Shown one piece after another: positions 8,531-37,200 of a stretch of 38,035 bases of DNA. Origin of the DNA: a virus. The DNA lies in the UHGV virus genome UHGV-0072754; one strand, given 5' to 3'. The number at the start of each line of letters is the position of its first letter. The first letter of the stretch is position 1. The notes below the pieces were generated by a model, which worked only from the letters and a program-made list of their open reading frames with translations, made no database searches and had not been told where the DNA came from. A program made the translations under genes and the position numbers.

Positions 8531-9520
8531 GTGAGAGCATTACTGACACCTGAAGTTGCACCAATGTCCGGGGTGGTACTGTTTCGCCCCGGAAACGAAC
8601 TGCTGTGGTTGTTTCGCCGTGGCAGGGTGGTGATTGAAACGCCTTCCGAAGCAATCAAGCACCTGCCATCTGGACTGATTCCTGAAGCCCACCAGCCACT
8701 GACAGATGATGTCAGTGTGCAGGAGCTTTTCCTGAATGAGAGAGTTATTCAGCGTGCTGGTGGACTGAGTGGCCTTGATGCCTGGCTGGAACGTAAATTC
8801 GAATGTCAGTGGCCGCACAACGAATGGCACTCAAAGGACTTTACACTTCTACGCCACGCCCCCGGCAGCATTCGCCTGTGCTGGGGATGTGATAACCAAC
8901 TGCGTGAACAAACTACAGAAAGACTGGCAGGAATTGCCATGCAGAACCTGGTAAAATGGCTGCTCGAAAGGGTGAATATCATGCTGGGTTTCAGCGCTGA
9001 CCACACCCTGACGCTGCCGGAGTTTTGCTGGTGGATGATACGTAACGATCTGGCTGACCTGATTCCTGAATCAGTGGCTAGCCAGGCGCTCCGGATTAAG
9101 CCTGAATCGCACAGTTCAGTGATGCGTGAAAGCGACATTGTTCCGTCATTACCAGCAACTGAAATCCTCCAGGAGAAAGTTAAGAAGATAGTCTCGGTGA
9201 AGGTCGATCCTGAATCACCTGAATCTTTCATGCTGAGGCCAAAGCGCCGTCGCTGGGAGAACGACAAGTACACCCGCTGGGTGAAGTCGCAGCAGTGCAG
9301 TTGCTGCAATAACCCGGCAGACGACCCCCATCACCTGATTGGCCACGGGCAAGGTGGAATGGGTACCAAAGCGCATGACCTGTTTGTGATACCGCTGTGC
9401 AGAGCGCATCACGATGAGTTACACGCTGATCCTGTGGCATTTGAAGCGAAGCACGGCGACCAGTTAACGCTGTTGTTTCGGTTTTTAGATCGTGCGCTGG
9501 CAATCGGCGCACTGGCGTAA
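8531..9520 (+). CDS. DUF968-like nin-region protein with C-terminal Cys/His (HNH-like) motif (329 aa)
   Basis: GTG start with GAGG SD; C-terminus CSCCNNPADDPHHLIGHG...CRAHHDELH; recalled resemblance to DUF968 prophage proteins. Confidence 0.55.
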   Translation: MRALLTPEVAPMSGVVLFRPGNELLWLFRRGRVVIETPSEAIKHLPSGLIPEAHQPLTDDVSVQELFLNERVIQRAGGLSGLDAWLERKFECQWPHNEWHSKDFTLLRHAPGSIRLCWGCDNQLREQTTERLAGIAMQNLVKWLLERVNIMLGFSADHTLTLPEFCWWMIRNDLADLIPESVASQALRIKPESHSSVMRESDIVPSLPATEILQEKVKKIVSVKVDPESPESFMLRPKRRRWENDKYTRWVKSQQCSCCNNPADDPHHLIGHGQGGMGTKAHDLFVIPLCRAHHDELHADPVAFEAKHGDQLTLLFRFLDRALAIGALA

Positions 9521-9533
9521 GTGGAGACGCAGC

Positions 9534-10112
9534 ATGATCAATCCTTCAGAAGTTGGCAAATCGGGCGAGATGGTTCGCCTTCGCACTCTCGAAAGTATCT
9601 GGGTACAGGGTAAGCTCCGTATGTGGGGCCGCTGGTCTTATATCGGTGGTGGCTCTGGCGGAAACATGTTCAACCAGCTGCTGGCATCGGGGAAAATCAC
9701 CAAGACCGCTATCAACGATGCGCTGCGCCGCATGAAGAAATCCGGTATCACCAAACCCGAGCTGGAAGCGTACCTGCAAGAAATTCTCGACAGTAAAAAC
9801 AAAACTGGCCTGACGTTCTGCTCGGACGAAGAGGGGCTTAAGATTGACGGCGTTATTGCGGCAGTGCTGATGAACGAAGAATACCGTGGGCTGTATAGTG
9901 TGATTGTTGATCGTCATCGTCTGCGTAAAAGCAAACTCCAGATGGCTAAAGAGCTTAATTCAAAACACCCCGACTGGACCCTTATTACATGCCGTCGTCG
10001 TATTGATACATGGGTAAGTCTTGCAGAATCGATCATTTACGCACCACTTTGTGACGCGTTTGGCACAAATAGCGACAGATTTAAGTTGCATAGTGAGCAA
10101 GAAAGTGCTTAA
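9534..10112 (+). CDS. Late-gene antitermination protein Q
   Basis: GGAG SD before ATG 9534; motif LRMWGRWSYIGGG recalled from the phage antiterminator Q family; upstream of a terminator-rich leader and the lysis cassette. Confidence 0.7.
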   Translation: MINPSEVGKSGEMVRLRTLESIWVQGKLRMWGRWSYIGGGSGGNMFNQLLASGKITKTAINDALRRMKKSGITKPELEAYLQEILDSKNKTGLTFCSDEEGLKIDGVIAAVLMNEEYRGLYSVIVDRHRLRKSKLQMAKELNSKHPDWTLITCRRRIDTWVSLAESIIYAPLCDAFGTNSDRFKLHSEQESA

Positions 10113-10695: not shown

Positions 10696-11091
10696 ATGTC
10701 CGATCCTGTTTCTGGCACGACAGTAGCGGCTGGTGGTCTGATGGGGGCCAGCATGTTCGGCCTGGCAACAGGCATAGACTACGGTGTGGTGTTTGGCGCA
10801 TTCGCTGGTGCCGTGTTCTACGTCGCTACGGCAGTTAATATCAGCCGCCTTAAGCTGGTGGGCTACTTCATCACCTCATTCATCTTCGGCGTTATCGGCG
10901 CTCCACTGCTTGGCTCTTACTTCTCCAAATGGACGGGGTATAGCGACAGGCCACTCGATGCGCTGGGCGCGGTAATCGTAGCCGCTATTGCTATTAAGCT
11001 GCTGACGTTCGTAAACAGTCAGGATTTGGGTAGCCTGTTTGGAATTCTCTCGCGTTTACGTGGTGGAGGGGCCAGCAATGGTAACAAGTGA
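10696..11091 (+). CDS. Holin-like membrane protein (131 aa)
   Basis: Several hydrophobic helices, Gly/Ala-rich; first gene of lysis cassette. Confidence 0.55.
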   Translation: MSDPVSGTTVAAGGLMGASMFGLATGIDYGVVFGAFAGAVFYVATAVNISRLKLVGYFITSFIFGVIGAPLLGSYFSKWTGYSDRPLDALGAVIVAAIAIKLLTFVNSQDLGSLFGILSRLRGGGASNGNK

Positions 11092-11359
11092 TCCGAGTGC
11101 GATGGCAAACGCAATTATCTCTGCTGTTATCGTTATTGCACTGATGTTCTACCAGCGCGGCGGGGCGAGACATCGCCCTCTGATATCGCTGATGGCTTAT
11201 TTCACGGTGCTGGTATACGCCAGCGTCCCGTTCCGTTACCTGTTCGGCTTGTACCATGAATCGCACTGGTTCGTGGTGCTGGTGAACGTCCTGATATGCG
11301 CCGCCGTTCTCTGGGCTCGGGGAAACGTAGCACGCCTGGTTGATGCACTGAGGCACTAA
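11078..11359 (+). CDS. Second small membrane protein of the lysis cassette (holin/antiholin candidate, 93 aa)
   Basis: ATG 11078 overlaps upstream stop; 2-3 predicted TM segments; immediately precedes endolysin. Confidence 0.5.
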   Translation: MVTSDPSAMANAIISAVIVIALMFYQRGGARHRPLISLMAYFTVLVYASVPFRYLFGLYHESHWFVVLVNVLICAAVLWARGNVARLVDALRH

Positions 11360-11985
11360 TGAACCAATCACAATTTCAAAAGGCGGCTGGGCTAAGCGCC
11401 GAGTTAGCTGCACGCTGGTTTCAGCCAGTGAGTGATGCGATGAAAGAGTTCGGCATTACGAAACCGGTAGACCAGGCAATGTTCATAGCTCAGGCAGGGC
11501 ATGAATCAGCAGGCTTCACTCTGCTGGTGGAGAGCTTCAACTACCGCATTGCAGCACTCGTGAATTTCATCCGTGCCGGACGTCTCACAGCAGACCAGGC
11601 AAATGCGCTTGGCCGCCGTCCTGAGGAACGAACATTACCGATTGAGCGCCAGCGAGCCATTGCTAACCTGGTATACAGCAAGCGAATGGGGAACAACGCT
11701 CCCGGTGACGGCTGGTTATACCGTGGGCGTGGACTTATCCAGATTACCGGACTCAATAACTACCGTGATTGCGGGAACGGCCTGAAGGTTGATTTGGTTA
11801 AGCAGCCTGAGCTGTTGGCCGAAGATGTTTATGCATCCAGAAGCGCGGCGTGGTTCTTCGCCACTAAGGGATGCCTGAAGTATTCCGGCGACCTGATGCA
11901 GGTGACGAAGATTATCAACGGCGGAACGAACGGACTGGAAGATCGTCGCGCTCGTTTCGGTCAGGCCAAAACGGTATTGGTGTGA
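11359..11985 (+). CDS. Endolysin, glycoside hydrolase family 19 (chitinase-like lysozyme)
   Basis: Motifs FIAQAGHESAGF, YRGRGLIQITGLNNY, YSGDLMQVTKIINGG typical of GH19 phage endolysins. Confidence 0.8.
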   Translation: MNQSQFQKAAGLSAELAARWFQPVSDAMKEFGITKPVDQAMFIAQAGHESAGFTLLVESFNYRIAALVNFIRAGRLTADQANALGRRPEERTLPIERQRAIANLVYSKRMGNNAPGDGWLYRGRGLIQITGLNNYRDCGNGLKVDLVKQPELLAEDVYASRSAAWFFATKGCLKYSGDLMQVTKIINGGTNGLEDRRARFGQAKTVLV

Positions 11986-11992
11986 GGTTGAT

Positions 11993-12268
11993 ATGGGATT
12001 AGAAACAATCGTCGGTATTGCTGCCCTGATAATGGCGGCTATCGCAGGTGCCTTTGGCATTGGTCACTCACGCGGCACCAGCAAAGCGGAAGCTAAAGCC
12101 GACCAACTGCGCACCGAAGAAAAGGCCGCAGCCACTGAAGCAGTAGCCGAACGCCGGGTAGAAGCAACGAAAGAGGCCAGCAATGTACAGCAGACTGTTA
12201 ACCGCATGCCTGATGACGATGTTGATCGCGAGCTGCGCACCACGTGGAAGCGTCCCGGTGGTGGTTGA
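11993..12268 (+). CDS. i-spanin (Rz-like)
   Basis: N-terminal TM helix then charged coiled-coil region; follows endolysin. Confidence 0.7.
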   Translation: MGLETIVGIAALIMAAIAGAFGIGHSRGTSKAEAKADQLRTEEKAAATEAVAERRVEATKEASNVQQTVNRMPDDDVDRELRTTWKRPGGG

Positions 12269-12419
12269 TACCGCCTGTGACTGGGTAAAGCCAATCTACC
12301 TGACCGATCACGACATCGACGTTATGGACCGCCAGACGAAGAAAGACATCCTGGCGCATAACAAAGCGTGGCAGGCGAACTGCCAGAAACCAATAGCAGT
12401 CACCATTCCAAAAGGATAA
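12183..12419 (+). CDS. o-spanin lipoprotein (Rz1-like), overlapping i-spanin in another frame
   Basis: Lipobox LIASC after signal peptide; gene starts inside the Rz-like gene in a different frame (classic Rz/Rz1 architecture). Confidence 0.7.
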   Translation: MYSRLLTACLMTMLIASCAPRGSVPVVVDTACDWVKPIYLTDHDIDVMDRQTKKDILAHNKAWQANCQKPIAVTIPKG

Positions 12420-12474
12420 GCATGACAGCAGGCATTCAATTATCGCCTATGATGATGCTCTTTTATTTAGTTGC

Positions 12475-12483
12475 TGATATAAT
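12475..12483 (+). promoter_or_regulatory. Extended -10 promoter (TGaTATAAT) for the AT-rich moron
   Basis: TGATATAAT 32 nt upstream of the moron start; strong AGGAGGG SD follows. Confidence 0.35.
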
Positions 12484-12514
12484 CCCCCCTAAATGATTTC
12501 AGGAGGGATCTGCG

Positions 12515-12823
12515 TTGTCCGCGATAAACCACATAAAAAACCCGTTAACGATTATCGGTATTTTTGCGGGGATAGTAGAGGTCTCTGCAAACCTCGTATT
12601 ACCTTTTCTTAATGATTCCCAGCAAAGTACATATCTTTGGTTTTTAATGTTTTTCCCGGCAGGGCTTGTAATAGTGTTTTTTTTGACGCTGAATTTTAAT
12701 CATGTTGCACTTTATGCTCCAAGCGATTATAGCAACGATAGAGGATTCATGCAGGCCAATGGTAAAATGATCGGTAATGATGTTCAGGATACTGATGCAA
12801 CACAAGGCTTTGAATTAACATGA
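12515..12823 (+). CDS. Small membrane protein, AT-rich moron gene 1 (102 aa, TTG start)
   Basis: TTG start 7 nt after AGGAGGG; two hydrophobic helices; markedly lower GC than flanking phage genes. Confidence 0.5.
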   Translation: MSAINHIKNPLTIIGIFAGIVEVSANLVLPFLNDSQQSTYLWFLMFFPAGLVIVFFLTLNFNHVALYAPSDYSNDRGFMQANGKMIGNDVQDTDATQGFELT

Positions 12824-13086
12824 ATAAATTCATCTCAAGCACTTTTAATAATACTATCGTCGAACTGGATGGCAACCATTACGAAAAGTGCGTTTTTGAA
12901 AATTGCGAAATTGTATATAAGGGGTTACAGCCTTTTAATTTAATTAATTGTAATTTTATTGCATGCAAATGGAAATTTGAAGGTGCAGCGTCAAACACAA
13001 TTAATTTTTTAAAGGTTATGTATAAAGATATGGGTGAGTTTGGAAAGAAAATGGTAGAAGCCACTTTCGAAAACATAAAAAAATAG
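12820..13086 (+). CDS. Small Cys-containing soluble protein, AT-rich moron gene 2 (88 aa)
   Basis: ATGA overlap with gene 1; repeated motifs resembling pentapeptide repeats (FENCEI, LINCNF, FIACKW); low GC. Confidence 0.5.
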   Translation: MNKFISSTFNNTIVELDGNHYEKCVFENCEIVYKGLQPFNLINCNFIACKWKFEGAASNTINFLKVMYKDMGEFGKKMVEATFENIKK

Positions 13087-13118
13087 TTTCATCCATTTAC
13101 TTTCAATTTATGAGATAT

Positions 13119-13145
13119 TGCCCTGCAATCGCGGGGCTTTTTTAT
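13119..13145 (+). terminator. Intrinsic terminator closing the moron
   Basis: CCCTGC-aatc-GCGGGG then CTTTTTTAT. Confidence 0.55.
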
Positions 13146-13256
13146 GCGCATCGCACGCGCACATCAAAGAAAGTCTTTCAGCTGTGAGCCTGGGCAAACC
13201 GTTAACTTTCGGCGGCCTTGCCGTGCGACAGGCTCACGTCTAAAAGGAAATAAATC

Positions 13257-13838
13257 ATGGGTCAGAAAATTATTACGTTGTCCGGCGCGGCGACGGATGT
13301 TCTGTATGCGCTGTTTTTCCGTGGCGCGCTTCAGTCTGGTGACCTGCCAGCTAAATCTGGTGCCGCTGAGCTTCGAGAGTTGGGATTCGCTGAAACACGC
13401 CATACCGCGACGGAGTATCAAAAGGAAAATTATTTCACCTTCCTGACTGCTGAAGGGCAGGAGTTTGCCATTAAGCATCTGGTAAATACGCGCTTTGGTG
13501 TGCCAGTGGGTAAGCAGTATTGCAGCGCAATCAAAATTGATGTTGAGCTGGACACGTCAGACGCACAAAAGGTTCTTGACGAATTGGACGACAAAATCCG
13601 AAACAACGATGCATTTAAGGCCATGAAAGACGGATGGCAGCTCGAAAAAAACGGAACGATGATTATTAATAACGGCCAGGTATTCATAAAAGATGCCTTC
13701 ATCGATCCCGAAATTAAGACCAGTGTGAAGCTATCCCCTGAAATGGAAAAAGCTATTTCTGATGCTGTGTCAGCCGAACTTAAAAAGAATCTTAAGCCCG
13801 GTGGCATAATCTGGGATTGCTTACGGCGTGGAATCTGA
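13257..13838 (+). CDS. Hypothetical protein (193 aa), first gene of glycosyltransferase module
   Basis: AAGGAAA SD; no family recognised. Confidence 0.55.
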   Translation: MGQKIITLSGAATDVLYALFFRGALQSGDLPAKSGAAELRELGFAETRHTATEYQKENYFTFLTAEGQEFAIKHLVNTRFGVPVGKQYCSAIKIDVELDTSDAQKVLDELDDKIRNNDAFKAMKDGWQLEKNGTMIINNGQVFIKDAFIDPEIKTSVKLSPEMEKAISDAVSAELKKNLKPGGIIWDCLRRGI

Positions 13839-13849
13839 AGGGAGATTTT

Positions 13850-15307
13850 ATGCAGGTCACTATTAATGGTGTCCCATACGCTCCCGCCAGCGTCGTTTCA
13901 TCACGGATCGGCATTGCAATTTCGACACATCAGCGCACAGACGTATTAAAACGAGCACTCGAACAGCACATGAAGCATCTTCCCGCCAGCGCGCTGGTGG
14001 TGGTGGTCGATGATGGTTCAAAACCTGCAGCTGTAGTTCCCCACGGCGTTCAGCTGCATCGACATGAAACATCACTCGGCATTGTTGCTTCGAAGAACAC
14101 TAGCCTGTCAGCCCTGATGGACGCCGGGTGTGAGCATCTCTTCCTGTGGGACGATGACGCCTGGCCCATCGCTGATAACTGGCACTTGCCTTACATTGAA
14201 TCACCCGAGCCACACCTGGCTTACCAGTTTCTCGATCTGGCTGGCCGCAATAAGTTGAATGACCTTTCGGTGCTTTACCGTGACGATCAGCATGTGGCGT
14301 ATACCGGGCAGCGCGGCGTGATGCTGTATTACCACCGCAGCGCCATCGAGAAGGTGGGCGGATTCGATCCGGTTTATGGTCGCGGCATGTACGAACATAG
14401 TGACCTCGCCCTGCGCATCCATAATGCTGGCCTGACGACATGGGCTTACGGTGATGTGGTCGGTTCAGAAAAGCTGATTCACTCTCTCGATGAGCATGAA
14501 GCAGTGGAGCGTTCGGTACCGAAACCAGACCGGCAGGCGCTGGTGGAACGTAACGTTAAAATCCACAACGAACGGCGCGATACCGGGTTTACTGGTTACG
14601 TTGAATACCGCCAGCAGCGCGACGTGGTTATCACTACGTTACTGACCAGCCAGCCTGACCCTCAGCGCGGCACAAAAATGACGGCCTCGCCTGACATGCT
14701 GAGTAAATGGGCGGCATCGCTGCGTAATTGTGGACGTATCGCGCTGGTGGATGAACTTCAGACGGCCCCGGCAGACGTTGAGCTGTACCGCGTCCCTGAC
14801 GTGAAGATGAATGTCTACTTTCGTCGCTGGTTGCACATCTGGCAGCACCTGCGAGAACACCCTGAATACCGGTTCGTCTGGTGTACCGATGGGACCGATG
14901 TCGAAATGCTTCGCGCACCGTGGGAAGAAATGCAGCCCGGTAATGTTTATGTCGGTTCAGAACCGAAGACATACGCCGACGCATGGGCAAAACAGAATCA
15001 TCCTGAGCGTATCTATCAGGAGTTCATTGAAGCGCACCGCAATAATGTGATGCTTAACGCTGGTCTGCTGGGTGGCACCCGCGCTGATGTAATGGCGTTC
15101 GCTCACGGCATCATCCGTCTTTACTACCGGATCGAGAGTTATCGTTTCTGGAAGAAAGAACAGGCTGGCGCCGCGGTGGGGGATATGATCGCTTTTGGCA
15201 TTGTCTCGCAGTCATTCGCTGACAGGCTGGTCACCGGCCCTCTGGTACATACCGTTTTCAAAACTGATGGTATCGGTAAGGAGGCCGCATGGTGGAAACA
15301 CAAGTGA
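13850..15307 (+). CDS. Glycosyltransferase, GT-A fold (family 2-like) N-domain plus unknown C-terminal domain (485 aa)
   Basis: GAAGGGAGA SD before ATG 13850; motifs VVVVDDGS, FLWDDDAWP (DXD-type), GGFDP...GMYEHSDL characteristic of GT2 enzymes. Confidence 0.65.
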   Translation: MQVTINGVPYAPASVVSSRIGIAISTHQRTDVLKRALEQHMKHLPASALVVVVDDGSKPAAVVPHGVQLHRHETSLGIVASKNTSLSALMDAGCEHLFLWDDDAWPIADNWHLPYIESPEPHLAYQFLDLAGRNKLNDLSVLYRDDQHVAYTGQRGVMLYYHRSAIEKVGGFDPVYGRGMYEHSDLALRIHNAGLTTWAYGDVVGSEKLIHSLDEHEAVERSVPKPDRQALVERNVKIHNERRDTGFTGYVEYRQQRDVVITTLLTSQPDPQRGTKMTASPDMLSKWAASLRNCGRIALVDELQTAPADVELYRVPDVKMNVYFRRWLHIWQHLREHPEYRFVWCTDGTDVEMLRAPWEEMQPGNVYVGSEPKTYADAWAKQNHPERIYQEFIEAHRNNVMLNAGLLGGTRADVMAFAHGIIRLYYRIESYRFWKKEQAGAAVGDMIAFGIVSQSFADRLVTGPLVHTVFKTDGIGKEAAWWKHK

Positions 15308-23735: not shown

Positions 23736-24119
23736 ATGAAATCCATTAAGAATCTTGCCCTGGCGAAGATGTCAGGTTTTCGTCATAAAACAGTCATTGT
23801 TCCCGAATGGAAAGGTGTCAAAGTTATTCTGCGTGAGCCCTCTGGTGAGGCCTGGTTACGCTGGCAGGAGGTCGTGAAATCGGGTACAGACGATGAAAAT
23901 GTGTCGGTATCGGAAAAGGCGCACCGTAATCTCTGCGCTGACGTGGTTCTCTTCATTGACGTTCTATGCGACACCGATAAGCAACCGGTATTTAGTGTCG
24001 ATGAGGAAGAACAAGTTCGTGAAATTTACGGGCCTGTTCACTCACGTCTGCTCAAACAAGCTCTGGACCTGATCAACAACGCGGACGAAGCGCGGGAAAA
24101 GTCTCAACCCCCGGCGTAA
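23736..24119 (+). CDS. Tail assembly chaperone (gpG-like)
   Basis: Position between major tail and tape measure genes; overlapped at its 3' end by an open -1 frame. Confidence 0.65.
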   Translation: MKSIKNLALAKMSGFRHKTVIVPEWKGVKVILREPSGEAWLRWQEVVKSGTDDENVSVSEKAHRNLCADVVLFIDVLCDTDKQPVFSVDEEEQVREIYGPVHSRLLKQALDLINNADEAREKSQPPA

Positions 24120-24406
24120 AGTTTCTGATGTCGCTTGCGCTCCGGATGGGGCGCACGCTCTCAGAGCTTCGGCAGAATATGACGGCAAGCGAGTTACTGA
24201 TGTGGATTGAGTTCGACAGGCAAAGCCCGGTTGGAGATATTCGCGGAGATATTCAGGCTGCCCAGATCGTCTCTGCCATCTACGGCTCACAGGGGGCAAA
24301 AGTACAACTGGACGATGCAATACTGCGCTGGGGTGAGGGCGAGCAATCAGAAACGAAAGACCCGTTTTCAGGACTTGAGGCCGCACTTACAGCTGCAACT
24401 CAGTGA
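24023..24406 (+). CDS. Tail assembly chaperone -1 frameshift extension (gpT-like; expressed as G-T fusion)
   Basis: -1 frame open from 24023 and overlapping the last ~95 nt of G; candidate slip site cGG GAA AAG at 24093-24101; first ATG at 24128. Confidence 0.55.
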   Translation, partial: NLRACSLTSAQTSSGPDQQRGRSAGKVSTPGVKFLMSLALRMGRTLSELRQNMTASELLMWIEFDRQSPVGDIRGDIQAAQIVSAIYGSQGAKVQLDDAILRWGEGEQSETKDPFSGLEAALTAATQ

Positions 24407-24462
24407 CTTTCATCCCGGAAGATATTAGGATTTATTCGACTAATACTTCTGGAGCTAATTTA

Positions 24463-24876
24463 ATGGAAAAAATACTTCTGGGTGCTGCGTTAATATTATT
24501 GGCTGGTTGCTCTACCCAACCTGTAAATACAGAACAAGCCTCTATTGTTCCCCCTGAGAGGGTTTGGGATAAGAAGATAACAAGTAAGTCTCCAGAAACC
24601 GGTGTTGTAATAGTTAAGCGAGACTCGGGATTTATTGGGAGTGCATGTCTTGCAAGTGTTTACTTAGATGGAAACCCGGTAGCTGATTTAAGCACAAGAG
24701 AAAAAGTTACACTGTATACAAAGCCAGGAAGACACATTTTAAGTGCAACTCCCCATGGGTGGTGTGCAGGAGGAATGGTTGAGGTGGGTGCAGATGTGGT
24801 TCTGGATAAAACATTAATTTATAGAATTGGTTATGGAGCTAATGGTGATTACAGGTTTTCACCAACAGCATTTTAA
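24463..24876 (+). CDS. Lipoprotein moron inside the tail operon (137 aa)
   Basis: Signal peptide with lipobox LLAGC; GGAG SD; low GC; own terminator downstream. Confidence 0.6.
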   Translation: MEKILLGAALILLAGCSTQPVNTEQASIVPPERVWDKKITSKSPETGVVIVKRDSGFIGSACLASVYLDGNPVADLSTREKVTLYTKPGRHILSATPHGWCAGGMVEVGADVVLDKTLIYRIGYGANGDYRFSPTAF

Positions 24877-24894
24877 CTATCTAAGTGAATAAGA

Positions 24895-24920
24895 AGCCCG
24901 CCTAATTGGCGGGTTTTTTA
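24895..24920 (+). terminator. Intrinsic terminator after lipoprotein moron
   Basis: GCCCGCC-taatt-GGCGGG then TTTTTTAAT. Confidence 0.6.
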
Positions 24921-24931
24921 ATGGGTGAAAT

Positions 24932-27900
24932 ATGGCTACGTTGCGCGAACTGATCATCAAGATATCCGCCAATTCACAGTCTTTCCAGACAGAGATTTCA
25001 CGCGCCTCGCGAATGGGGCAGGATTATTATCGGACTATGCAAAATGGTGGCCGTCAGGCCGCCGCTGCCGCGCGTGAAAGCGAAAGAGCGTTATCCGATC
25101 TGACTAACGGTTTTGCCTCTGCAGGAAGGGCTGCTGCTGCAGCTACGGCAGCATTTGCAACGGGCAAGCTTGTACAAATCGCCGATGAGTGGAATTCCGT
25201 AAACGCGCGCCTCAAGCAGGCATCATCCTCTGCTGATGATTTTGCTGCTTCCCAGCGTCAGTTAATGGAAATCAGTCAAAGAACAGGCACGGCGTTTTCC
25301 GATAACGCAAACCTTTTTTCACGCGCAGCTGCTTCAATGCGAGAATACGGGTATAGCTCTGACGAAGTTCTGAAAATTACAGAGGCTGTTTCAACCGGTC
25401 TTAAGCTTTCCGGGGCAAATACGCAGGAGGCAAGCTCGGTTATAACCCAATTCAGCCAGGCTCTGGCGCAAGGTGTTCTTCGCGGTGAAGAATTTAACGC
25501 GGTTAACGAAGCGGGTGATCGGGTAATCCGAGCTCTGGCCGCCGGAATGGGCGTGGCTCGAAAAGACCTGAAAAGTATGGCTGATCAGGGGCAACTTACT
25601 ATTGATAAGGTTGTTCCGGCGTTAATGAGCCAACTCGGTGCATTGCAGGGTGAATTTGCCAGCATGCCGCAAACCGTATCCGGGTCCCTACAAAAAGTAA
25701 CAAACTCATTCATGGCCTGGGTTGGTGGTGTCAATCAGGCTACTGGGGCTACCGATGCGTTGTCTGGTGGGCTGGACGGTATCGCACAGACGCTTGATTC
25801 TTTTACATCATCAGCAGTTAGCGGTGCTCTCAGTGAAGTTGCTGACAATATGTCCACCATAACAACAGTTGCTGGAGCGCTAGTTGGCGTTGGGTTAGCA
25901 AAATACCTCAGCGGAGTTGTAACCAGTGCCACGAGTGCAACAGGTGCGTTAATTTCAGCTGCGAAATCAGAGGTTGCTCTTGCAGTCGCGCAGGATAAAG
26001 CGGCGCAGTCTGCTGTTGCGGCTTCCAGGGCTGAAGTTTATCGGGCTCAGCAAGCAGTACAGAGTTCAAGAAGTGCAGATGTTCAGGCGGCTCAGCAAGA
26101 AAAAGTCGCGGCGGCTGAAGCAAAAGTCACTGCGGCCCATACCAGACTTACGACCGCTCTTGCCAGCGGTACAGCTACGGAAAAGGTGCGAGCCAGAACA
26201 GCACTTGAACGCGCGCAGGCAGGGCTGGTAGCAGCTAAAAATGCCGACGCTCAGGCTGTAGCTGAAAGGCGTCTGGCTGCCGCTCAGGCTGCTTTAAACC
26301 GTAACATCTCAAATCGTGTTTCGACCCAAAGTAATCTCAATAGTGTGACATCTGTCGGCACTCGGCTCATGAGTGGTGCCCTTGGACTTATTGGCGGCGT
26401 ACCGGGTTTGGTGATGCTCGGGGCAGGTGCCTGGTATGCGATGTATCAGAATCAGGAGCAGGCTCGGCGTTCTGCTCAGGAATATGCCAGTCAAATCGAC
26501 GAGATACGAGAAAAAACTTCCCGCATGTCTTTGTCTGAAACAGACGATAATAGGGGGAGGACTGTTGGTGCTCTGGTAGAGCAAAATCGTCTGATTAATG
26601 AGCAAGCCAAAAAGGTTGGTGAGCTGAAGACCCAGATCGATGATTTGAACGCATCGCGTGGAAAGCCGGGCATTAACAGCGAGAACGATGCAAATATACT
26701 GAGAGCGATAGCTATTGTTACTGATCAACTTGCTGTTGAAGAGGGAAAATTAAATGACATGCGAGATAAATCTCGCGGCATACAGCAGGCTCTCGAAGAA
26801 ATTGAACGGCGTCGTAATGATTTAATTCGCGAACAAGCCTGGCGACAGAATGCGGTATATCAGTCGATGATCATGATGAATGGTCAGCATACTGAATTTA
26901 ACCGCCTGTTGGGGCTAGGTAACCAACTTCTTATGGCGCGTCAGGGGCTGGCTAACGTCCCGCTCAGACTTCCACAGGCAGATCTTGACAAAAAGCAAAC
27001 CGATGCCCTCGAAAAGAGCCGTCGGGATCTGGAGTTGTCACGCCTGAAGGGTGAGGCCAAAGAACGTTTACGGTTGAGTTATGCCGCCGATGACCTGGGA
27101 TTAACCAGTGAACCGCAATTCCAGACAGCCCGTCAGGAGTTGATAAATAACGGTCTTATGGAATGGAAAAATAATGAGACCAACAAGCCCAGGGCAAAAG
27201 GTGGTAAAACCGAAGGCGAAAAAACAGAGGATGTTTATAAACGCCTTATAAAGCAGCAAAAAGAGCAGATCGCCTTGCAGGGTCAAAATACCGAACTGGC
27301 AAAACTGAAATACCAGGTTAGCCAGGGCGAACTGGCGACGTTGACAGCGTCCCAGAAGCAGACCCTTTTGCAGAATGCCGCGCTTATTGATCAGCAGAAA
27401 ATTCGTGAGCAACTGGCAGCATATGAAGCAAACCTTGCTGATGCCAACGCCAGCTCGCGTGCATCAAATCAAGCTGAGCTCACTGGATACGGGCAGGGGA
27501 GCCGTACGCGTGAGCGTATGCAGGAAATGCTGCGTATCAGGGAGGAATTTCAGCAGAAAAACGTTGACCTTCAGCGCCAGTATCAGTCCGGTGATATCTC
27601 TGAGGAACTGTATCGCCAGGAGCTGGCACTGAATAAACGTTATCTCGATGAACGCTTACGCGATCAGGCGGGTTTCTACGCTGCGTCTGATGCCCAAAGA
27701 AGTGACTGGGCTGCTGGGATGCGGGAGGGCTTTGCTAACTGGGTAGATACTGCTTCCGATTACGCCTCACAGTCAGCAGACCTGGTGAACAATACCATGT
27801 CTGGGCTGGTGGGGAATATTTCTGAAGCGCTGGCCGGTAACAAAGTTGACTGGGAGGACTGGTCAAAATCGGTACTGGCATCCATGCAGAAAATTATCCT

Positions 27901-28414
27901 TAACGCGATGATCGTCAATTCGCTGCAGTCTTCTATGGGCGGTGGTGGATTCCTGGGCGGATTGTTTGGCGGCTCTGCTGGTGGATCAACACCGTCAGGT
28001 TCTTACAACTCTGCGGCATCAGGTCTTCAGCTCAACGCTAAGGGGGGCGCTTACGCTTCCGCCAGCCTCAGTGCTTACAGTAACAGCATTGTCAGATCAC
28101 CGACATACTTTGCTTTTGCGAAAGGCGCTGGGCTGATGGGGGAGGCAGGCCCGGAAGCCATCATGCCGCTAACGCGATCTGCAGATGGTTCACTTGGCGT
28201 TCGGGTAACAGGAGCTCAAATGGCCCCAGGAGGCGGCGGAGAAATCCATATCACCCAGCATATCAATGTTTCTGGTAACGGTGACGCCGCGCTTAATCGT
28301 GCCATGCAGGAGGCCGCGCGTCAGGGAGCTGCCGATGGTGCTAAAAAAGCGCGTCAGGACATGCTGAGTGATTTTCAGACCAACGGTCAGGCCAGGAGGA
28401 TGCTTGGCGTTTAA
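24932..28414 (+). CDS. Tail tape measure protein (1160 aa)
   Basis: Very long, Ala/Gln-rich coiled-coil protein with Gly-rich C-terminal region; canonical position. Confidence 0.9.
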   Translation: MATLRELIIKISANSQSFQTEISRASRMGQDYYRTMQNGGRQAAAAARESERALSDLTNGFASAGRAAAAATAAFATGKLVQIADEWNSVNARLKQASSSADDFAASQRQLMEISQRTGTAFSDNANLFSRAAASMREYGYSSDEVLKITEAVSTGLKLSGANTQEASSVITQFSQALAQGVLRGEEFNAVNEAGDRVIRALAAGMGVARKDLKSMADQGQLTIDKVVPALMSQLGALQGEFASMPQTVSGSLQKVTNSFMAWVGGVNQATGATDALSGGLDGIAQTLDSFTSSAVSGALSEVADNMSTITTVAGALVGVGLAKYLSGVVTSATSATGALISAAKSEVALAVAQDKAAQSAVAASRAEVYRAQQAVQSSRSADVQAAQQEKVAAAEAKVTAAHTRLTTALASGTATEKVRARTALERAQAGLVAAKNADAQAVAERRLAAAQAALNRNISNRVSTQSNLNSVTSVGTRLMSGALGLIGGVPGLVMLGAGAWYAMYQNQEQARRSAQEYASQIDEIREKTSRMSLSETDDNRGRTVGALVEQNRLINEQAKKVGELKTQIDDLNASRGKPGINSENDANILRAIAIVTDQLAVEEGKLNDMRDKSRGIQQALEEIERRRNDLIREQAWRQNAVYQSMIMMNGQHTEFNRLLGLGNQLLMARQGLANVPLRLPQADLDKKQTDALEKSRRDLELSRLKGEAKERLRLSYAADDLGLTSEPQFQTARQELINNGLMEWKNNETNKPRAKGGKTEGEKTEDVYKRLIKQQKEQIALQGQNTELAKLKYQVSQGELATLTASQKQTLLQNAALIDQQKIREQLAAYEANLADANASSRASNQAELTGYGQGSRTRERMQEMLRIREEFQQKNVDLQRQYQSGDISEELYRQELALNKRYLDERLRDQAGFYAASDAQRSDWAAGMREGFANWVDTASDYASQSADLVNNTMSGLVGNISEALAGNKVDWEDWSKSVLASMQKIILNAMIVNSLQSSMGGGGFLGGLFGGSAGGSTPSGSYNSAASGLQLNAKGGAYASASLSAYSNSIVRSPTYFAFAKGAGLMGEAGPEAIMPLTRSADGSLGVRVTGAQMAPGGGGEIHITQHINVSGNGDAALNRAMQEAARQGAADGAKKARQDMLSDFQTNGQARRMLGV

Positions 28415-29611: not shown

Positions 29612-30010
29612 ATGAAGCATCCAGACTGGCATAACAGATTAATCGCCGTGATAAGGGCCGCTGAAAAGCGGCCTTTTTTATGGGGCGAACATGACTGCTG
29701 CCTGTTTGCGGCAGACTGCGCGGAAGCGATGACCGGGGATAATTTCGCCGACGGCTGGCGCGGGACCTACGACAGCGAAACGGGCGCAAAAAAGGCGCTG
29801 CTGCGCGGCGGCGGCTCACTTGAAAAGGTGCTGGCTAAATACCTCGCTGAAGTGCCGGTGAAGATGGCTCAGCGCGGCGATATCGCGGTAGTGGAAAACG
29901 CGGGTACCCGCTGCGCCGGGGTAATTTACGGTGGTGCAGTGTGGGTACCGGGAGAAACGGGGCTGGTTTGCCTGCGAATTAAGCCCCTTAGTGCGTGGAG
30001 GGTTCGCTGA
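29612..30010 (+). CDS. Tail tip-associated protein, possible NlpC/P60-like peptidase
   Basis: WGEHDCCLFAADC resembles the catalytic Cys region of NlpC/P60-type tail proteins (tentative). Confidence 0.45.
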   Translation: MKHPDWHNRLIAVIRAAEKRPFLWGEHDCCLFAADCAEAMTGDNFADGWRGTYDSETGAKKALLRGGGSLEKVLAKYLAEVPVKMAQRGDIAVVENAGTRCAGVIYGGAVWVPGETGLVCLRIKPLSAWRVR

Positions 30011-36063: not shown

Positions 36064-36115
36064 AGCAGGGTTCAACCATCATTTCATCATCGTTTCGCCA
36101 TCATGGTTTACGGGA

Positions 36116-36146
36116 ACAAAAAACCAGCCTCTTACGGCTGGTTTTC
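36116..36146. terminator. Bidirectional-type terminator adjacent to tRNA-Pro fragment
   Basis: A-run, CCAGCC-tcttac-GGCTGG, T-run. Confidence 0.55.
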
Positions 36147-36156
36147 AAAGTGTTTT

Positions 36157-36205
36157 TGGTCGGCACGAGAGGATTTGAACCTCCGACCCCCGACACCCCA
36201 TGATG
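36157..36205 (-). other. tRNA-Pro(GGG) 3' fragment (~47 nt, anticodon loop to CCA); relic attachment-site candidate
   Basis: Minus-strand sequence TCATGGGGTGTCGGGGGTCGGAGGTTCAAATCCTCTCGTGCCGACCA matches the 3' part of E. coli proL as recalled; no 5' half present. Confidence 0.65.
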
Positions 36206-36211
36206 GTGACC

Positions 36212-36625
36212 TTACTTAACGTAAGTACCGCAAGTATTGCATTTATACTTACCGGCAAAACGAAATTGACCGTTTACTGCGCTCATTGAAGACATTTTCT
36301 TTTCTGAACTTTCATAGCATTTGGGACAAAAAGGGCCATTAGGCTTTCCTTCAATTTCATTAGCCCGCCAGTAAACTGCTTCACGGAAAACAAGCTCATC
36401 AGAAGCGTCCAGTTTTCCTTGCAATTCTGTAACCTTGCGCTTCAGTTCATACATCTCCAATTGCGTATCAGCCAATTCGATTTTTGCTTCTGATAAGGCG
36501 CTGTAAAGATCACTGATCTTTAACCTCATCTCGGCATCATTGTATGCTCCAGAGGCGTTTTTAATGTCTTTGGCTAAATCAAATGCGGTTTTCAGTGCGG
36601 TTAAACCTGTGACGATGTCTGCCAT
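36212..36625 (-). CDS. Hypothetical coiled-coil protein with C-terminal zinc-ribbon (137 aa)
   Basis: AAGAGGG SD; CPKC-x17-CNTC; low GC; sits between two tRNA fragments. Confidence 0.55.
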   Translation of the reverse strand: MADIVTGLTALKTAFDLAKDIKNASGAYNDAEMRLKISDLYSALSEAKIELADTQLEMYELKRKVTELQGKLDASDELVFREAVYWRANEIEGKPNGPFCPKCYESSEKKMSSMSAVNGQFRFAGKYKCNTCGTYVK

Positions 36626-36840
36626 AGTACCCTCTTATATTCAGAAAAATGATCTTCAAAACAACGAGTTTACATCCAGCGAAAGATTTTTTTTGTGAAT
36701 AAAATCAAACCAATTTCAGGCTCAACCATTCGCCATTGTGACTGTAGGATAACCGTAAACCATTGATTCAATTGATGTTAAAATTATGAATTAATGGCGA
36801 ACAATAAACATATGTATTTGATTTTTATAGAAAACACGCG

Positions 36841-36897
36841 TGATTTAAAATCCCTCGGCGTTCGCGCTGTGTGGGTTCAAGTCCCACTCCGGCTACC
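36841..36897 (+). other. tRNA-Leu(UAA) 3' fragment (57 nt); candidate prophage attR core
   Basis: GATTTAAAATCCCTCGGCGTTCGCGCTGTGTGGGTTCAAGTCCCACTCCGGCTACCA matches the leuZ-type tRNA-Leu 3' part from anticodon loop to CCA; upstream 30 nt are AT-rich non-tRNA sequence. Confidence 0.7.
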
Positions 36898-36937
36898 ATG
36901 GGAAACAAAGAATAATCAAAGCAATAAGCAGTGTCGT

Positions 36938-36962
36938 GAAACCACCGAAAGGTGGTTTTTTT
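36938..36962 (+). terminator. Intrinsic terminator of the host tRNA locus
   Basis: CCACC-gaaa-GGTGG then TTTTTTTT. Confidence 0.6.
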
Positions 36963-37200
36963 GTGCCTCTGGCTTAGCGCGAAGTGAGCGCATCTCATCG
37001 TCATCACGATCGTGCTGTGCCCGGAAATTTGCTGCCATACCAGAACGTTAAGCCTAACTCTCTAATATCAAGCCCGGAAAGCAGGGCGATTGTCAGCTAA
37101 CCTGCAACCAATCTTAAACAAATATTTCACTCGCCAGACACAGGTTGCCGCCGCTGATAAACTGGTTGGTATCCACCCTGGAGAGCGGAAGGTTATTGTC

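What the first reader, a model, noticed from the sequence alone, without database searches (positions are those of the whole stretch)
24407..24920. Lipoprotein moron inserted between the tail chaperone (G/GT) and tape measure genes
Seen in sequence: a low-GC gene encoding a 137-aa protein with signal peptide and lipobox (LLAGC), GGAG SD, and its own intrinsic terminator directly before the tape measure gene. Established knowledge: phage lipoproteins such as T5 Llp and phi80/N15 Cor block the cognate receptor and give superinfection exclusion. Inference: this position inside the tail operon is unusual for a moron and fits a receptor-masking or envelope-modifying function.
Basis: partly seen in the sequence, partly recalled or inferred. 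Interest (0 to 1): 0.55.

Follow-up and report, generated by a model that had tools for sequence, protein, structure and literature searches.

The report
Lipoprotein moron in HK97 gene-15 slot
A temperate Enterobacter phage carries an imported gene for an exported, lipid-anchored protein at the tail-operon site where extra phage genes ("morons") were first described; the gene is real and conserved, its function is untested, and it does not track the phage's receptor-binding genes.

Summary
Window 24407-24920 is a low-GC cassette with a GGAG ribosome-binding site, a 137-codon lipoprotein gene (24463-24876) and a strong intrinsic terminator. It sits between tail chaperone gene T and the tape measure gene of an HK97-like temperate prophage of Enterobacter.

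The position is not unusual. It is the HK97 gene-15 slot, where the word "moron" was first applied. In 80 related viral contigs the slot is never empty, and 79 of the 80 cargos are membrane or lipoproteins.

The protein belongs to a large uncharacterised family (phrog_890, distantly related to DUF2846). Members sit at several classic moron sites: T-TMP, K-I, after TMP, after cI, and between Q and the lysis genes. The predicted fold is a generic transthyretin-like beta-sandwich. There is no sequence similarity to Cor, Llp or HK97 gp15.

The 100%-identical protein occurs in prophages with two unrelated tail-tip modules. In the K-I subfamily it tracks the backbone, not the J C-terminus. This argues against Cor/Llp-style masking of the phage's own receptor.

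The best guess is a periplasm-facing outer-membrane lipoprotein, expressed from the prophage, that alters the envelope. Receptor-independent superinfection exclusion is the likeliest role, and it is unproven. I rate it a new member of a known kind, of moderate interest.

The parts
23736..24119 (+). Tail assembly chaperone G (backbone gene, left neighbour)
   Evidence: PF06222 Phage_TAC_1 at E 2.3e-58; phrog_344 and phrog_14766.
24128..24406 (+). Tail assembly protein T ORF, in the -1 frame relative to G (G/GT arrangement). Its stop codon is the left boundary of the cassette.
   Evidence: PF06223 Phage_tail_T at E 4.8e-20. The HK97 homologue is annotated as a -1 frameshift product. Homology with HK97 and LAU1 ends at this stop codon.
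24407..24462 (+). 56-nt AT-rich leader of the cassette, with the GGAG Shine-Dalgarno at 24451-24454. No convincing sigma-70 promoter.
   Evidence: Read directly from the sequence. The promoter scan finds nothing in the cassette. The leader is conserved only among close relatives carrying the same cargo.
24463..24507 (+). Signal peptide (residues 1-15), ending in the lipobox L-A-G before Cys16
   Evidence: The PROSITE-type lipobox pattern is met. It is conserved in 92 of 99 family members.
24463..24876 (+). Lipoprotein gene, 137 aa precursor and 122 aa mature. Member of the phrog_890 / DUF2846-related family.
   Evidence: phrog_890 at E 5.3e-44 over the full length. DUF2846 at 16.2 bits, below the 34.3-bit cut-off. 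AF2 pLDDT 90.5, eight-strand beta-sandwich. dN/dS 0.05-0.14. Invariant residues C16, K52-R53-D54, C62 and C101; C-terminus xTAF.
24897..24919 (+). Intrinsic terminator (6-bp GC stem, 5-nt loop, T6) that closes the cassette
   Evidence: -20.5 kcal/mol, z -4.4. Equivalent hairpins close the unrelated cargos of HK97 and LAU1. It is absent from the empty slot of HK022.
24932..28414 (+). Tape measure protein gene (backbone gene, right neighbour)
   Evidence: PF06120 at E 1e-80, PF20155 at E 8e-58, PF09718 at E 5e-17.
9492..10112 (+). Q-type late antiterminator. It is relevant because Q-modified polymerase would read through the cassette terminator.
   Evidence: PF06576 DUF1133 at E 6.5e-92; PF06530 Phage_antitermQ at E 5e-7.

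Best explanation
What it is (well supported). The feature is a horizontally acquired moron cassette of about 0.51 kb. It consists of an AT-rich leader with a Shine-Dalgarno site, a 137-codon ORF and an intrinsic terminator. It occupies the 'gene 15' slot between tail-chaperone gene T and the tape measure gene of an HK97-like (Hendrixvirinae-type) temperate prophage of the Enterobacter cloacae complex.

The product has a Sec signal peptide and a lipobox. [quoted passage not shown] There a short linker would hold a 100-residue transthyretin-like beta-sandwich in the periplasm, probably with a C62-C101 disulfide.

It belongs to a large, uncharacterised family of phage and bacterial lipoproteins (phrog_890, distantly related to DUF2846). 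This family moves between the classic moron sites of many temperate phages.

How it most likely works (inferred). In the lysogen it would be transcribed by unmodified polymerase, and the terminator would keep that transcription out of the tape measure gene. In lytic growth, Q-antiterminated late transcripts would read through. In the envelope it would act on a conserved periplasmic or outer-membrane component or step, not on the phage's own surface receptor. The likeliest benefit is superinfection exclusion at a post-adsorption stage. That would be analogous in purpose, not in sequence or location, to the HK97 gp15 protein it replaces.
For: Cassette and moron identity:
- Boundaries, GC and GC3 deviation, and the terminator are shown.
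- HK97 gp15, annotated 'moron product' with a terminator, is in the same slot.
- HK022 has an empty slot.
- PMC3594210 names this slot as the first moron and reports gp15 as a prophage-expressed exclusion protein acting after adsorption.
- The slot is a hotspot for envelope proteins. It holds a YebO-family protein, a zinc-ribbon membrane protein, or a minus-strand tail-anchored protein in E. coli prophages. LAU1 has an unannotated 121-aa lipoprotein there. Among 80 IMG/VR loci the slot is never empty, and 79 cargos have a TM segment, signal peptide or lipobox.

Lipoprotein status:
- The lipobox rule is met, Cys is invariant, +2 is never Asp, and 89 of 92 members have exactly two further Cys.

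Fold:

Family size:
- There are 1763 50%-identity clusters at E <= 1e-3.

Genomic contexts that point to expression in lysogens:
- The gene lies 15-27 nt downstream of the cI-like repressor, on the same strand, in Vibrio H20-like phages and a V. vulnificus prophage.
- It lies between Q and the holin gene in Yersinia.
- It is a stand-alone unit on Klebsiella phage-plasmids.
- It lies after TMP in HK639.
- It lies between K and I in mEp390, in Pseudomonas phages, and in 43 of 79 IMG/VR loci.
- The same T-TMP slot is used with a different chaperone and TMP in Franconibacter.

Independence from the receptor-binding module:
- The identical protein occurs with two unrelated tail-tip modules.
- In the K-I subfamily, identity correlates with the J N-terminus (rho 0.75) and only weakly with the J C-terminus (rho 0.19). 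Some pairs have 98-100% identical lipoproteins and 29-39% identical J C-termini.
- One prophage carries two paralogues, one in each slot.

Other support:
- The window encodes a CI-like repressor and a Q antiterminator.
- Lipoproteins encoded inside structural gene clusters of other temperate coliphages have been shown to exclude phages (PMC11893012).
- Purifying selection is strong, with dN/dS 0.05-0.14.
Against: - No promoter was found in the 56-nt leader. The only sigma-70-like match nearby lies inside gene T and is no better than chance (1 found against 2.9 expected). Expression from the repressed prophage is therefore not shown for this locus.
- No member of the family has an experimentally known function. 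The literature searches returned nothing. The family is absent from PADLOC.
- The fold is generic and gives no functional lead.
- Some members are chromosomal with no phage context, for example in Nitrospira. The family spans very distant hosts. Both facts fit a general envelope function at least as well as an anti-phage one.
- The receptor-independence argument for the K-I subfamily rests on paralogues about 38-50% identical to the window protein, and on redundant metagenomic contigs.
- Lipidation, sorting and the disulfide are inferred from sequence rules only.
Confidence: 0.45

Rival explanations
1. Cor/Llp-type receptor masking. The outer-membrane lipoprotein binds the periplasmic face of the phage's own outer-membrane receptor. 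This blocks adsorption of this phage and of others that use the same receptor.
For: - Phage lipoproteins of this general type exist and face the periplasm. Llp binds the FhuA plug and has one disulfide (PMC9586334). Cor does the same job in T1, phi80 and N15 (PMC3594210).
- mEpimmI Lpp proteins encoded in the structural cluster exclude phages that use OmpA or LamB (PMC11893012).
- The window protein is a predicted outer-membrane lipoprotein with two conserved Cys.
- Many family members sit two genes upstream of J.
Against: - tblastn at E <= 10 finds no T5, T1, phi80, N15, HK022 or mEp021 record.
- The mature protein is 122 aa, against about 60 aa for Llp.
- The 100%-identical protein occurs with two unrelated tail-tip and fibre modules.
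- K-I-slot relatives keep 98-100% identity while the J C-termini drop to 29-39%.
- The family has invariant motifs across Vibrio, Pseudomonas, Ralstonia, Enterobacteriaceae and Nitrospira. That is hard to reconcile with binding one variable receptor.
Confidence: 0.15
2. Lysogenic-conversion factor unrelated to phage defence. The envelope lipoprotein improves host fitness, for example through serum or stress resistance, adhesion, or protection from toxins or envelope-damaging enzymes, as Bor and Lom do for lambda lysogens.
For: - Morons often encode such factors (PMC3594210).
- The family is very broad: 1763 clusters, with chromosomal non-phage copies and copies on 425 plasmids.
- It is independent of the receptor-binding module.
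Against: - The family shows a strong preference for tail-gene slots and for the position after cI. At least 54 of 79 IMG/VR loci are inside tail operons.
- The only characterised occupant of this slot is an exclusion protein.
- One prophage carries two diverged paralogues. That fits targets with different specificities better than a single housekeeping role.
- There are no data either way on host phenotypes.
Confidence: 0.2
3. Lytic-cycle function only. The gene is expressed with the late tail operon. It changes the envelope of the dying cell, for example so that progeny are not lost on debris (the second role proposed for Llp and Cor), or it assists lysis.
For: - The gene is co-oriented inside the late operon, and no promoter of its own was found.
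- Q-modified polymerase would transcribe it.
- BASEL authors describe Cor and Llp as preventing adsorption of offspring to debris (PMC11990801).
Against: - A strong terminator immediately before an essential late gene is pointless for late-only transcription. It is absent from the empty slot.
- Relatives sit directly behind cI or as stand-alone units.
- A separate lysis cassette with holin, endolysin and an Rz-like spanin exists at 10696-12268.
Confidence: 0.1
4. Tail structural or assembly component.
For: The only evidence is its position between the tail chaperone and the tape measure gene.
Against: - A Sec/Lsp-exported lipoprotein leaves the cytoplasm, where tails are assembled.
- The slot is empty in HK022 and holds unrelated cargos in close relatives with the same flanking genes.
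- Composition is deviant.
- Family members occur far from tail genes.
Confidence: 0.02

Closest known systems
HK97 gp15 moron (YebO family, PF13974)
   Same: - It occupies exactly the same slot between T and the tape measure gene in a closely related backbone, with flanks about 87% identical.
- It is a small envelope protein.
- Its cassette is closed by a similar terminator.
- It is documented as prophage-expressed and as excluding phages after adsorption (PMC3594210).
   Different: - The sequence and architecture are unrelated. gp15 is a 62-aa single-pass inner-membrane protein. The window protein is a 122-aa lipid-anchored beta-sandwich predicted for the outer membrane.
- There is no blastp or Pfam similarity.
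- The function of the window protein is untested.
Cor (T1, phi80, N15, HK022) and Llp (T5) superinfection-exclusion lipoproteins
   Same: - They are phage-encoded, lipobox-bearing small proteins with conserved Cys.
- Llp is shown to face the periplasm from the outer membrane (PMC9586334).
- They are encoded among tail genes.
   Different: - There is no detectable sequence similarity.
- The window protein is about twice the size and has a different predicted fold class.
- Cor and Llp genes lie next to the receptor-binding protein and are tied to FhuA. The window protein lies next to the tape measure gene and is found unchanged with unrelated tail tips.
mEpimmI Lpp021 / Lpp010 exclusion lipoproteins
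   Same: They are lipoproteins encoded within the structural gene cluster of temperate coliphages, and they have been shown experimentally to exclude phages (PMC11893012).
   Different: - They are unrelated in sequence. mEp021 gp81 is 72 aa and lies downstream of J.
- Their exclusion spectrum follows the receptor used (OmpA or LamB).
phrog_890 'lipoprotein' / Pfam DUF2846
   Same: - The window protein matches phrog_890 over its full length.
- Nineteen of 99 relatives touch DUF2846 at E < 0.01.
- Members include HK639 gp16, the Vibrio H20 'putative lipoprotein' and mEp390 gp17.
   Different: - These are annotation families with no known function.
- The window protein itself scores below the DUF2846 gathering threshold, 16.2 against 34.3 bits.
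Lambda Bor / Lom type lysogenic-conversion envelope proteins
   Same: They are moron-encoded outer-membrane proteins expressed from prophages (PMC3594210).
   Different: - There is no sequence relationship.
- Bor lies in the lysis region and Lom is a beta-barrel located after J.
- A host-fitness phenotype has not been tested here.

Membership tests
Moron (sense of Juhala et al. 2000 / Cumby et al. 2012) | Extra DNA between two genes that are adjacent in related phages | tested here: met
   In HK022, T and TMP are 19 nt apart. HK97, LAU1 and the window share flanks but carry unrelated inserts.
Moron (sense of Juhala et al. 2000 / Cumby et al. 2012) | Base composition differs from the surrounding genes | tested here: met
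   GC 0.405 against 0.517; GC3 0.26 against 0.48-0.51.
Moron (sense of Juhala et al. 2000 / Cumby et al. 2012) | Own transcription terminator | tested here: met
   Hairpin at 24897-24913 plus T6; -20.5 kcal/mol, z -4.4.
Moron (sense of Juhala et al. 2000 / Cumby et al. 2012) | Own promoter | tested here: inconclusive
   There is no sigma-70 consensus match in the 56-nt leader. The only nearby match (24213-24241, 9 of 12) lies inside gene T and is within chance expectation.
Moron (sense of Juhala et al. 2000 / Cumby et al. 2012) | Expression from the repressed prophage | not testable with these tools
   This needs RNA or protein data from a lysogen. The only indirect support is that relatives lie directly behind cI.
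Bacterial lipoprotein (PROSITE PS51257-type signal) | Positively charged n-region, hydrophobic h-region, and lipobox [LVI][ASTVI][GAS]C with Cys at positions 15-35 | tested here: met
   MEKILLGAALILLAGC with Cys16. The pattern is met in 92 of 99 relatives.
Bacterial lipoprotein (PROSITE PS51257-type signal) | Actual acylation, Lsp cleavage, and outer-membrane sorting | not testable with these tools
   Sorting is inferred from Ser at +2, which is never Asp in the family.
phrog_890 (phage 'lipoprotein') | Significant full-length match to the family HMM | tested here: met
   E 5.3e-44; residues 1-137 align to profile positions 1-136 of 136.
Pfam DUF2846 (PF11008) | Score at or above the gathering threshold (34.3 bits) | tested here: not met
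   16.2 bits, E 0.011. Nineteen of 99 relatives hit at E < 0.01. The relationship is distant at most.
Cor / Llp exclusion lipoproteins | Sequence homology to Cor or Llp | tested here: not met
   tblastn of the protein against 50,697 phage records at E <= 10 returns no T5, T1, phi80, N15 or HK022 record. HK022 is in the collection.
Cor / Llp exclusion lipoproteins | Gene adjacent to, and co-inherited with, the receptor-binding protein gene | tested here: not met
   The gene is adjacent to the tape measure gene. The identical protein occurs with two unrelated tip modules. The K-I subfamily does not track the J C-terminus.
Cor / Llp exclusion lipoproteins | Blocks adsorption by binding an outer-membrane receptor | not testable with these tools
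   This needs adsorption and binding assays.
HK97 gp15 / YebO family (PF13974) | Sequence match to YebO, and a single-pass inner-membrane topology | tested here: not met
   There is no Pfam hit and no blastp hit to HK97 gp15 or to the L115 YebO protein. The topology is different: a lipoprotein with no TM helix in the mature part.
o-spanin (Rz1-type lipoprotein) | Located in the lysis cassette, embedded in or adjacent to an i-spanin gene; a short proline-rich mature part | tested here: not met
   The lysis cassette, with an Rz-like spanin, is at 10696-12268. The window protein is a 122-aa beta-sandwich located 12 kb away.
TssJ (T6SS outer-membrane lipoprotein) | Homology to TssJ, and a T6SS gene context | tested here: not met

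The most novel reading that the evidence does not exclude
The phrog_890 / DUF2846-like lipoproteins may be a large, unrecognised class of prophage-encoded envelope defence proteins. On this reading they block superinfection at a conserved periplasmic step, independent of which surface receptor the incoming phage uses. Candidate steps are passage of the tail tip or tape measure through the periplasm and peptidoglycan, or inhibition of a tail-associated NlpC/P60-type hydrolase. This would explain three observations: they hop between moron slots in siphoviruses, P2-like phages and phage-plasmids from Vibrio to Pseudomonas; the same protein serves phages with different tail tips; and some prophages keep two diverged paralogues.
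Probability: 0.25. Interest if true: 0.65.

Novelty: new member of a known kind. Interest (0 to 1): 0.38.

Why it matters
The locus itself is an ordinary example of a well-known phenomenon: a moron in the HK97 gene-15 slot.

The family it belongs to is more notable. It is abundant, with 1763 clusters at 50% identity, hundreds of phage-plasmids, and many Enterobacter and Salmonella prophages. It is under strong purifying selection. It recurs at the sites where temperate phages keep genes expressed in lysogens. It has no known function.

A demonstrated role in receptor-independent exclusion would add a new mechanism to prophage-mediated defence. It would also affect the choice of therapeutic phages against lysogens of the Enterobacter cloacae complex, Klebsiella and Salmonella.

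The survey of the T-TMP slot gives a practical rule. In 79 of 80 loci the cargo is an envelope protein, from at least six unrelated families. This slot, and the K-I slot, are good places to look for new envelope-acting prophage factors.

Tried and rejected
- NCBIfam and PADLOC scans of the protein gave no hits.
- A profile search of 99 relatives against all PDB sequences gave no hit at E <= 1.
- Literature searches for DUF2846 and for H20-like phage lipoproteins gave no functional data. The one structure once labelled DUF2846 (Bd1399) was reassigned to DUF4360 by its authors.
- A search for a promoter in the leader, by consensus scan and by aligning nine relatives, found nothing convincing.
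- A megablast of the cassette against 5426 complete E. coli genomes found no copy of this cargo. It found only the flanks with other cargos.
- I considered and rejected an o-spanin, because a separate lysis cassette exists.
- I considered and rejected a virion component, because the protein is exported and the slot is dispensable.
- I considered and rejected a chance ORF, because of the homologues and the low dN/dS.
- I could not check the C62-C101 distance, because the model coordinates are not exposed. The disulfide is an inference from invariance.
- The conserved C-terminal xTAF does not fit an OMP beta-signal pattern and remains unexplained.
Full report
**1. The observation**

The region reads as the first-stage reader described it.
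- An ATG at 24463 is preceded by GGAG (24451-24454) at a spacing of 8 nt. It opens a 137-codon frame that ends at TAA 24874-24876.
- The N-terminus, MEKILLGAALILLAGC|STQ, has a charged n-region, a hydrophobic core and an L-A-G-C lipobox with Cys16.
- Twenty nucleotides after the stop there is a 6-bp G+C stem (24897-24902 pairing with 24908-24913), a 5-nt loop and six T residues. It folds at -20.5 kcal/mol, with z = -4.4 against shuffles.
- The tape measure ATG follows at 24932.
- GC is 0.405 for 24407-24920, against 0.517 for the window and for both neighbouring genes. Third-position GC is 0.26 against 0.48-0.51. Only 2.8% of equally long windows are as AT-rich.
- The neighbours are the tail chaperone G (PF06222), T (PF06223, in the -1 frame) and an HK97-type tape measure protein.
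- The ORF is a real gene. It matches phrog_890 ('lipoprotein') end to end at E 5e-44. It has many homologues. Its dN/dS against relatives is 0.05-0.14.

**2. Where the window comes from**

- The exact protein is recorded in 27 blocks of public assemblies, always between T and the tape measure gene. The named sources are Enterobacter roggenkampii and E. asburiae. The 90% cluster also holds a Salmonella variant seen on 811 contigs.
- The flanks are about 87% identical to HK97 and its relatives.
- The window also encodes a CI-like repressor, a Q-type antiterminator, a lysis cassette with its own Rz-like spanin, and HK97-type head genes. It is therefore an HK97-like temperate phage or prophage.

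**3. The position is the archetypal moron site, not an unusual one**

- In HK97 the same interval holds gene 15, annotated 'moron product', followed by a terminator.
[quoted passage not shown] - A three-way alignment shows that window, HK97 and LAU1 are co-linear up to the T stop codon and again from the terminator T-run. Between those points the sequence is unrelated.
- HK022 shows the empty state, with 19 nt between T and the tape measure gene and no terminator. The terminator therefore belongs to the cassette.
- E. coli prophages hold a YebO-family protein, a zinc-ribbon membrane protein or a minus-strand tail-anchored protein in this slot.
- LAU1 holds a 121-aa lipoprotein, of which the record annotates only the last 55 codons.
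- I surveyed 80 IMG/VR loci whose T protein is at least 90% identical to the window's. The interval is never empty (288-1630 nt). The cargos are listed below.

| Cargo in the T-TMP slot | Loci |
|---|---|
| Two-TM zinc-ribbon protein | 28 |
| gp15 / YebO | 13 |
| Lipoprotein or secreted protein, four unrelated types | 38 |
| IS5-like transposase | 1 |

- In total, 79 of the 80 cargos are envelope proteins.

**4. The protein and its family**

- A profile search of 1.84 billion representatives found 1763 clusters at E <= 1e-3 and 1039 at E <= 1e-10. Nearly all are stand-alone proteins of 130-145 aa.
- Across 99 aligned relatives the invariant residues are the lipid Cys, K52-R53-D54, C62 and C101.
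- 92 of the 99 pass the lipobox rule. Residue +2 is Ala or Ser and never Asp. 89 of 92 have exactly two further Cys. All end in x-T/A-A/V-F.
- AlphaFold2 with this alignment gives a confident model (pLDDT 90.5). It shows a signal helix, a linker, and an eight-strand beta-sandwich.
- No solved structure is related by sequence.
- The Pfam relation to DUF2846 is sub-threshold for the window protein, at 16.2 against 34.3 bits. It is seen in 19 of 99 relatives.
- DUF2846 has no known function.
- The family is not in PADLOC or NCBIfam.

**5. Where the family sits**

| Position | Example |
|---|---|
| Same T-TMP slot | Enterobacteriaceae prophages, 91% identical |
| Same T-TMP slot, different chaperone family, 832-aa TMP | Franconibacter |
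| Directly after the tape measure gene | HK639 |
| Between lambda K-like and I-like genes | mEp390, Pseudomonas phages |
| After gene D | P2-like phages |
| Between Q and the holin | Yersinia prophage |
| 15-27 nt behind the cI-like repressor, same strand | Vibrio H20-like phages, V. vulnificus prophage |
| Stand-alone unit | 425 plasmids, mostly ~110-kb phage-plasmids |
| Non-phage chromosomal context | Nitrospira |

- Among 80 IMG/VR loci that encode a relative, the upstream neighbour is K-like in 43, a tail chaperone in 11 and KilA-N in 5. The downstream neighbour is a tape measure protein in 10 and J in 12-14.
- These are the standard places for genes that temperate phages express in the lysogen. 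The position behind cI is the strongest indirect evidence for lysogenic expression.

**6. A test of the receptor-masking idea**

If the lipoprotein masked the phage's own receptor, as Cor and Llp do, it should travel with the receptor-binding module. It does not.
- I retrieved 10 kb on each side of the exact window protein. This gave five prophages with the window's tip module: distal tail protein, a 194-aa protein, DUF6950, a 900-930-aa J, DUF6453 and a fibre.
- It also gave five prophages with a lambda/HK97-type module: M, L, K, a moron, I, and a 1057-1265-aa J. Some of these also have a different head module.
- In 23 K-I-slot loci with a complete J, lipoprotein identity follows the J N-terminal 600 residues (Spearman 0.75). 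It barely follows the C-terminal 250 residues (0.19).
- Many pairs have 98-100% identical lipoproteins but 29-39% identical J C-termini.
- There are two caveats. The contigs are redundant, and the subfamily is only about 38-50% identical to the window protein.
- The K-I slot of the lambda-type prophages holds a diverged paralogue of the same family (L113, 38% identical), an unrelated 110-aa lipoprotein (L111, L117) or a YebO/gp15-like protein (L115). The two tail-operon slots therefore exchange the same cargo families, and one prophage can keep two paralogues.
- tblastn at E <= 10 against 50,697 phage records finds no T5, T1, phi80, N15, HK022 or mEp021 record. There is thus no sequence link to Llp, Cor or the experimentally tested mEpimmI Lpp proteins (PMC11893012; PMC9586334).

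**7. The mechanism I commit to**

Shown:
- It is a moron cassette in the gene-15 slot.
- It encodes a conserved protein that carries a lipobox.

Inferred from context:
- In the lysogen it is transcribed by unmodified polymerase and stopped at the terminator.
- In lytic growth, Q-modified polymerase reads through it.
- Its function is an envelope change that benefits the lysogen. The likeliest is superinfection exclusion at a step after adsorption and independent of the phage's own receptor.

My confidence is about 0.9 that it is an exported moron lipoprotein of this family. It is about 0.35-0.4 that it acts in phage exclusion, and about 0.15 that it masks a specific receptor. The single score of 0.45 reflects the combined statement.

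Weak points:
- No promoter was found.
- No member of the family has been studied.
- A general envelope role would explain the breadth of the family equally well.

**8. Comparison and novelty**

- The element works like HK97 gene 15 in genomic logic. In protein type it may work like Cor, Llp or Lpp. It is a member of none of these families.
- It is a member of phrog_890, an annotation-only family.
- I rate it a new member of a known kind: a moron-encoded envelope lipoprotein.
- The locus alone would not surprise a specialist.
- Three things are moderately interesting: the size and mobility of the family, its independence from the receptor-binding module, and the near-exclusive use of this slot for envelope proteins. 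The first two give a testable lead.

Noticed in passing
L122-L201 (IMG/VR loci with T >= 90% identical to window 24128-24406): The T-to-tape-measure interval is never empty in 80 loci. In 79 it carries a membrane, secreted or lipoprotein gene from at least six unrelated families. One locus (L129) carries an IS5-like transposase.
   Followed up: partly
L003 2209-2574 (Enterobacter phage LAU1, MN688132.1): The slot holds a 121-aa lipoprotein ORF (MVKILILIIFLIAGC...). The GenBank record annotates only its last 55 codons, as 'hypothetical protein'.
   Followed up: yes
L113 15805-16215; L111 and L117 15811-16143; L115 15814-16038: These prophages carry the identical window lipoprotein, and the second tail-operon slot (between K and I) holds other cargo. 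In L113 it is a 38%-identical paralogue of the same family. In L111 and L117 it is an unrelated 110-aa lipoprotein. In L115 it is a YebO/gp15-like protein. The two slots therefore exchange the same cargo families.
   Followed up: partly
window 24463-24876 and alignment A3: All 99 relatives end in x-T/A-A/V-Phe-COOH, and K52-R53-D54 is invariant. Neither motif matches anything I could name. The C-terminus does not fit an OMP beta-signal.
   Followed up: no
window 13817-15307 (+): A 496-aa glycosyltransferase (phrog_1579, category moron/AMG, E 9e-254) lies between the lysis cassette and the terminase genes. It is a candidate for O-antigen or surface modification by the prophage.
   Followed up: no
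window 12271-13440 and 36071-37170: Two further low-GC islands (<= 0.43) carry ORFs of unknown function: 12515-12823 (+, phrog_26238) and 36212-36625 (-, 137 aa, phrog_1244, no Pfam hit). Both lie at typical moron positions, after the lysis genes and after the tail fibre.
   Followed up: no
window 29612-30010 (+): The DUF6950 protein in the tail-tip module carries a WGEHDCCLF motif. This resembles the NlpC/P60 catalytic motif seen in the K-like neighbours of other family members (consensus). It may be the K-equivalent of this tip type. This rests on reading the sequence only.
   Followed up: no
L104 37053-37469 (phage mEp021, minus strand): The unrelated coliphage mEp021 also has an extra gene between its tail chaperone region and its tape measure gene. 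It is on the opposite strand and encodes a 138-aa protein with a signal peptide.
   Followed up: no
L121 4444-4881 (Klebsiella plasmid pHKU57_2) and 425 PLSDB records: A 40%-identical family member is widespread on ~110-kb non-mobilizable Klebsiella and E. coli plasmids, probably phage-plasmids. There it is a stand-alone gene divergent from a transcriptional regulator.
   Followed up: partly
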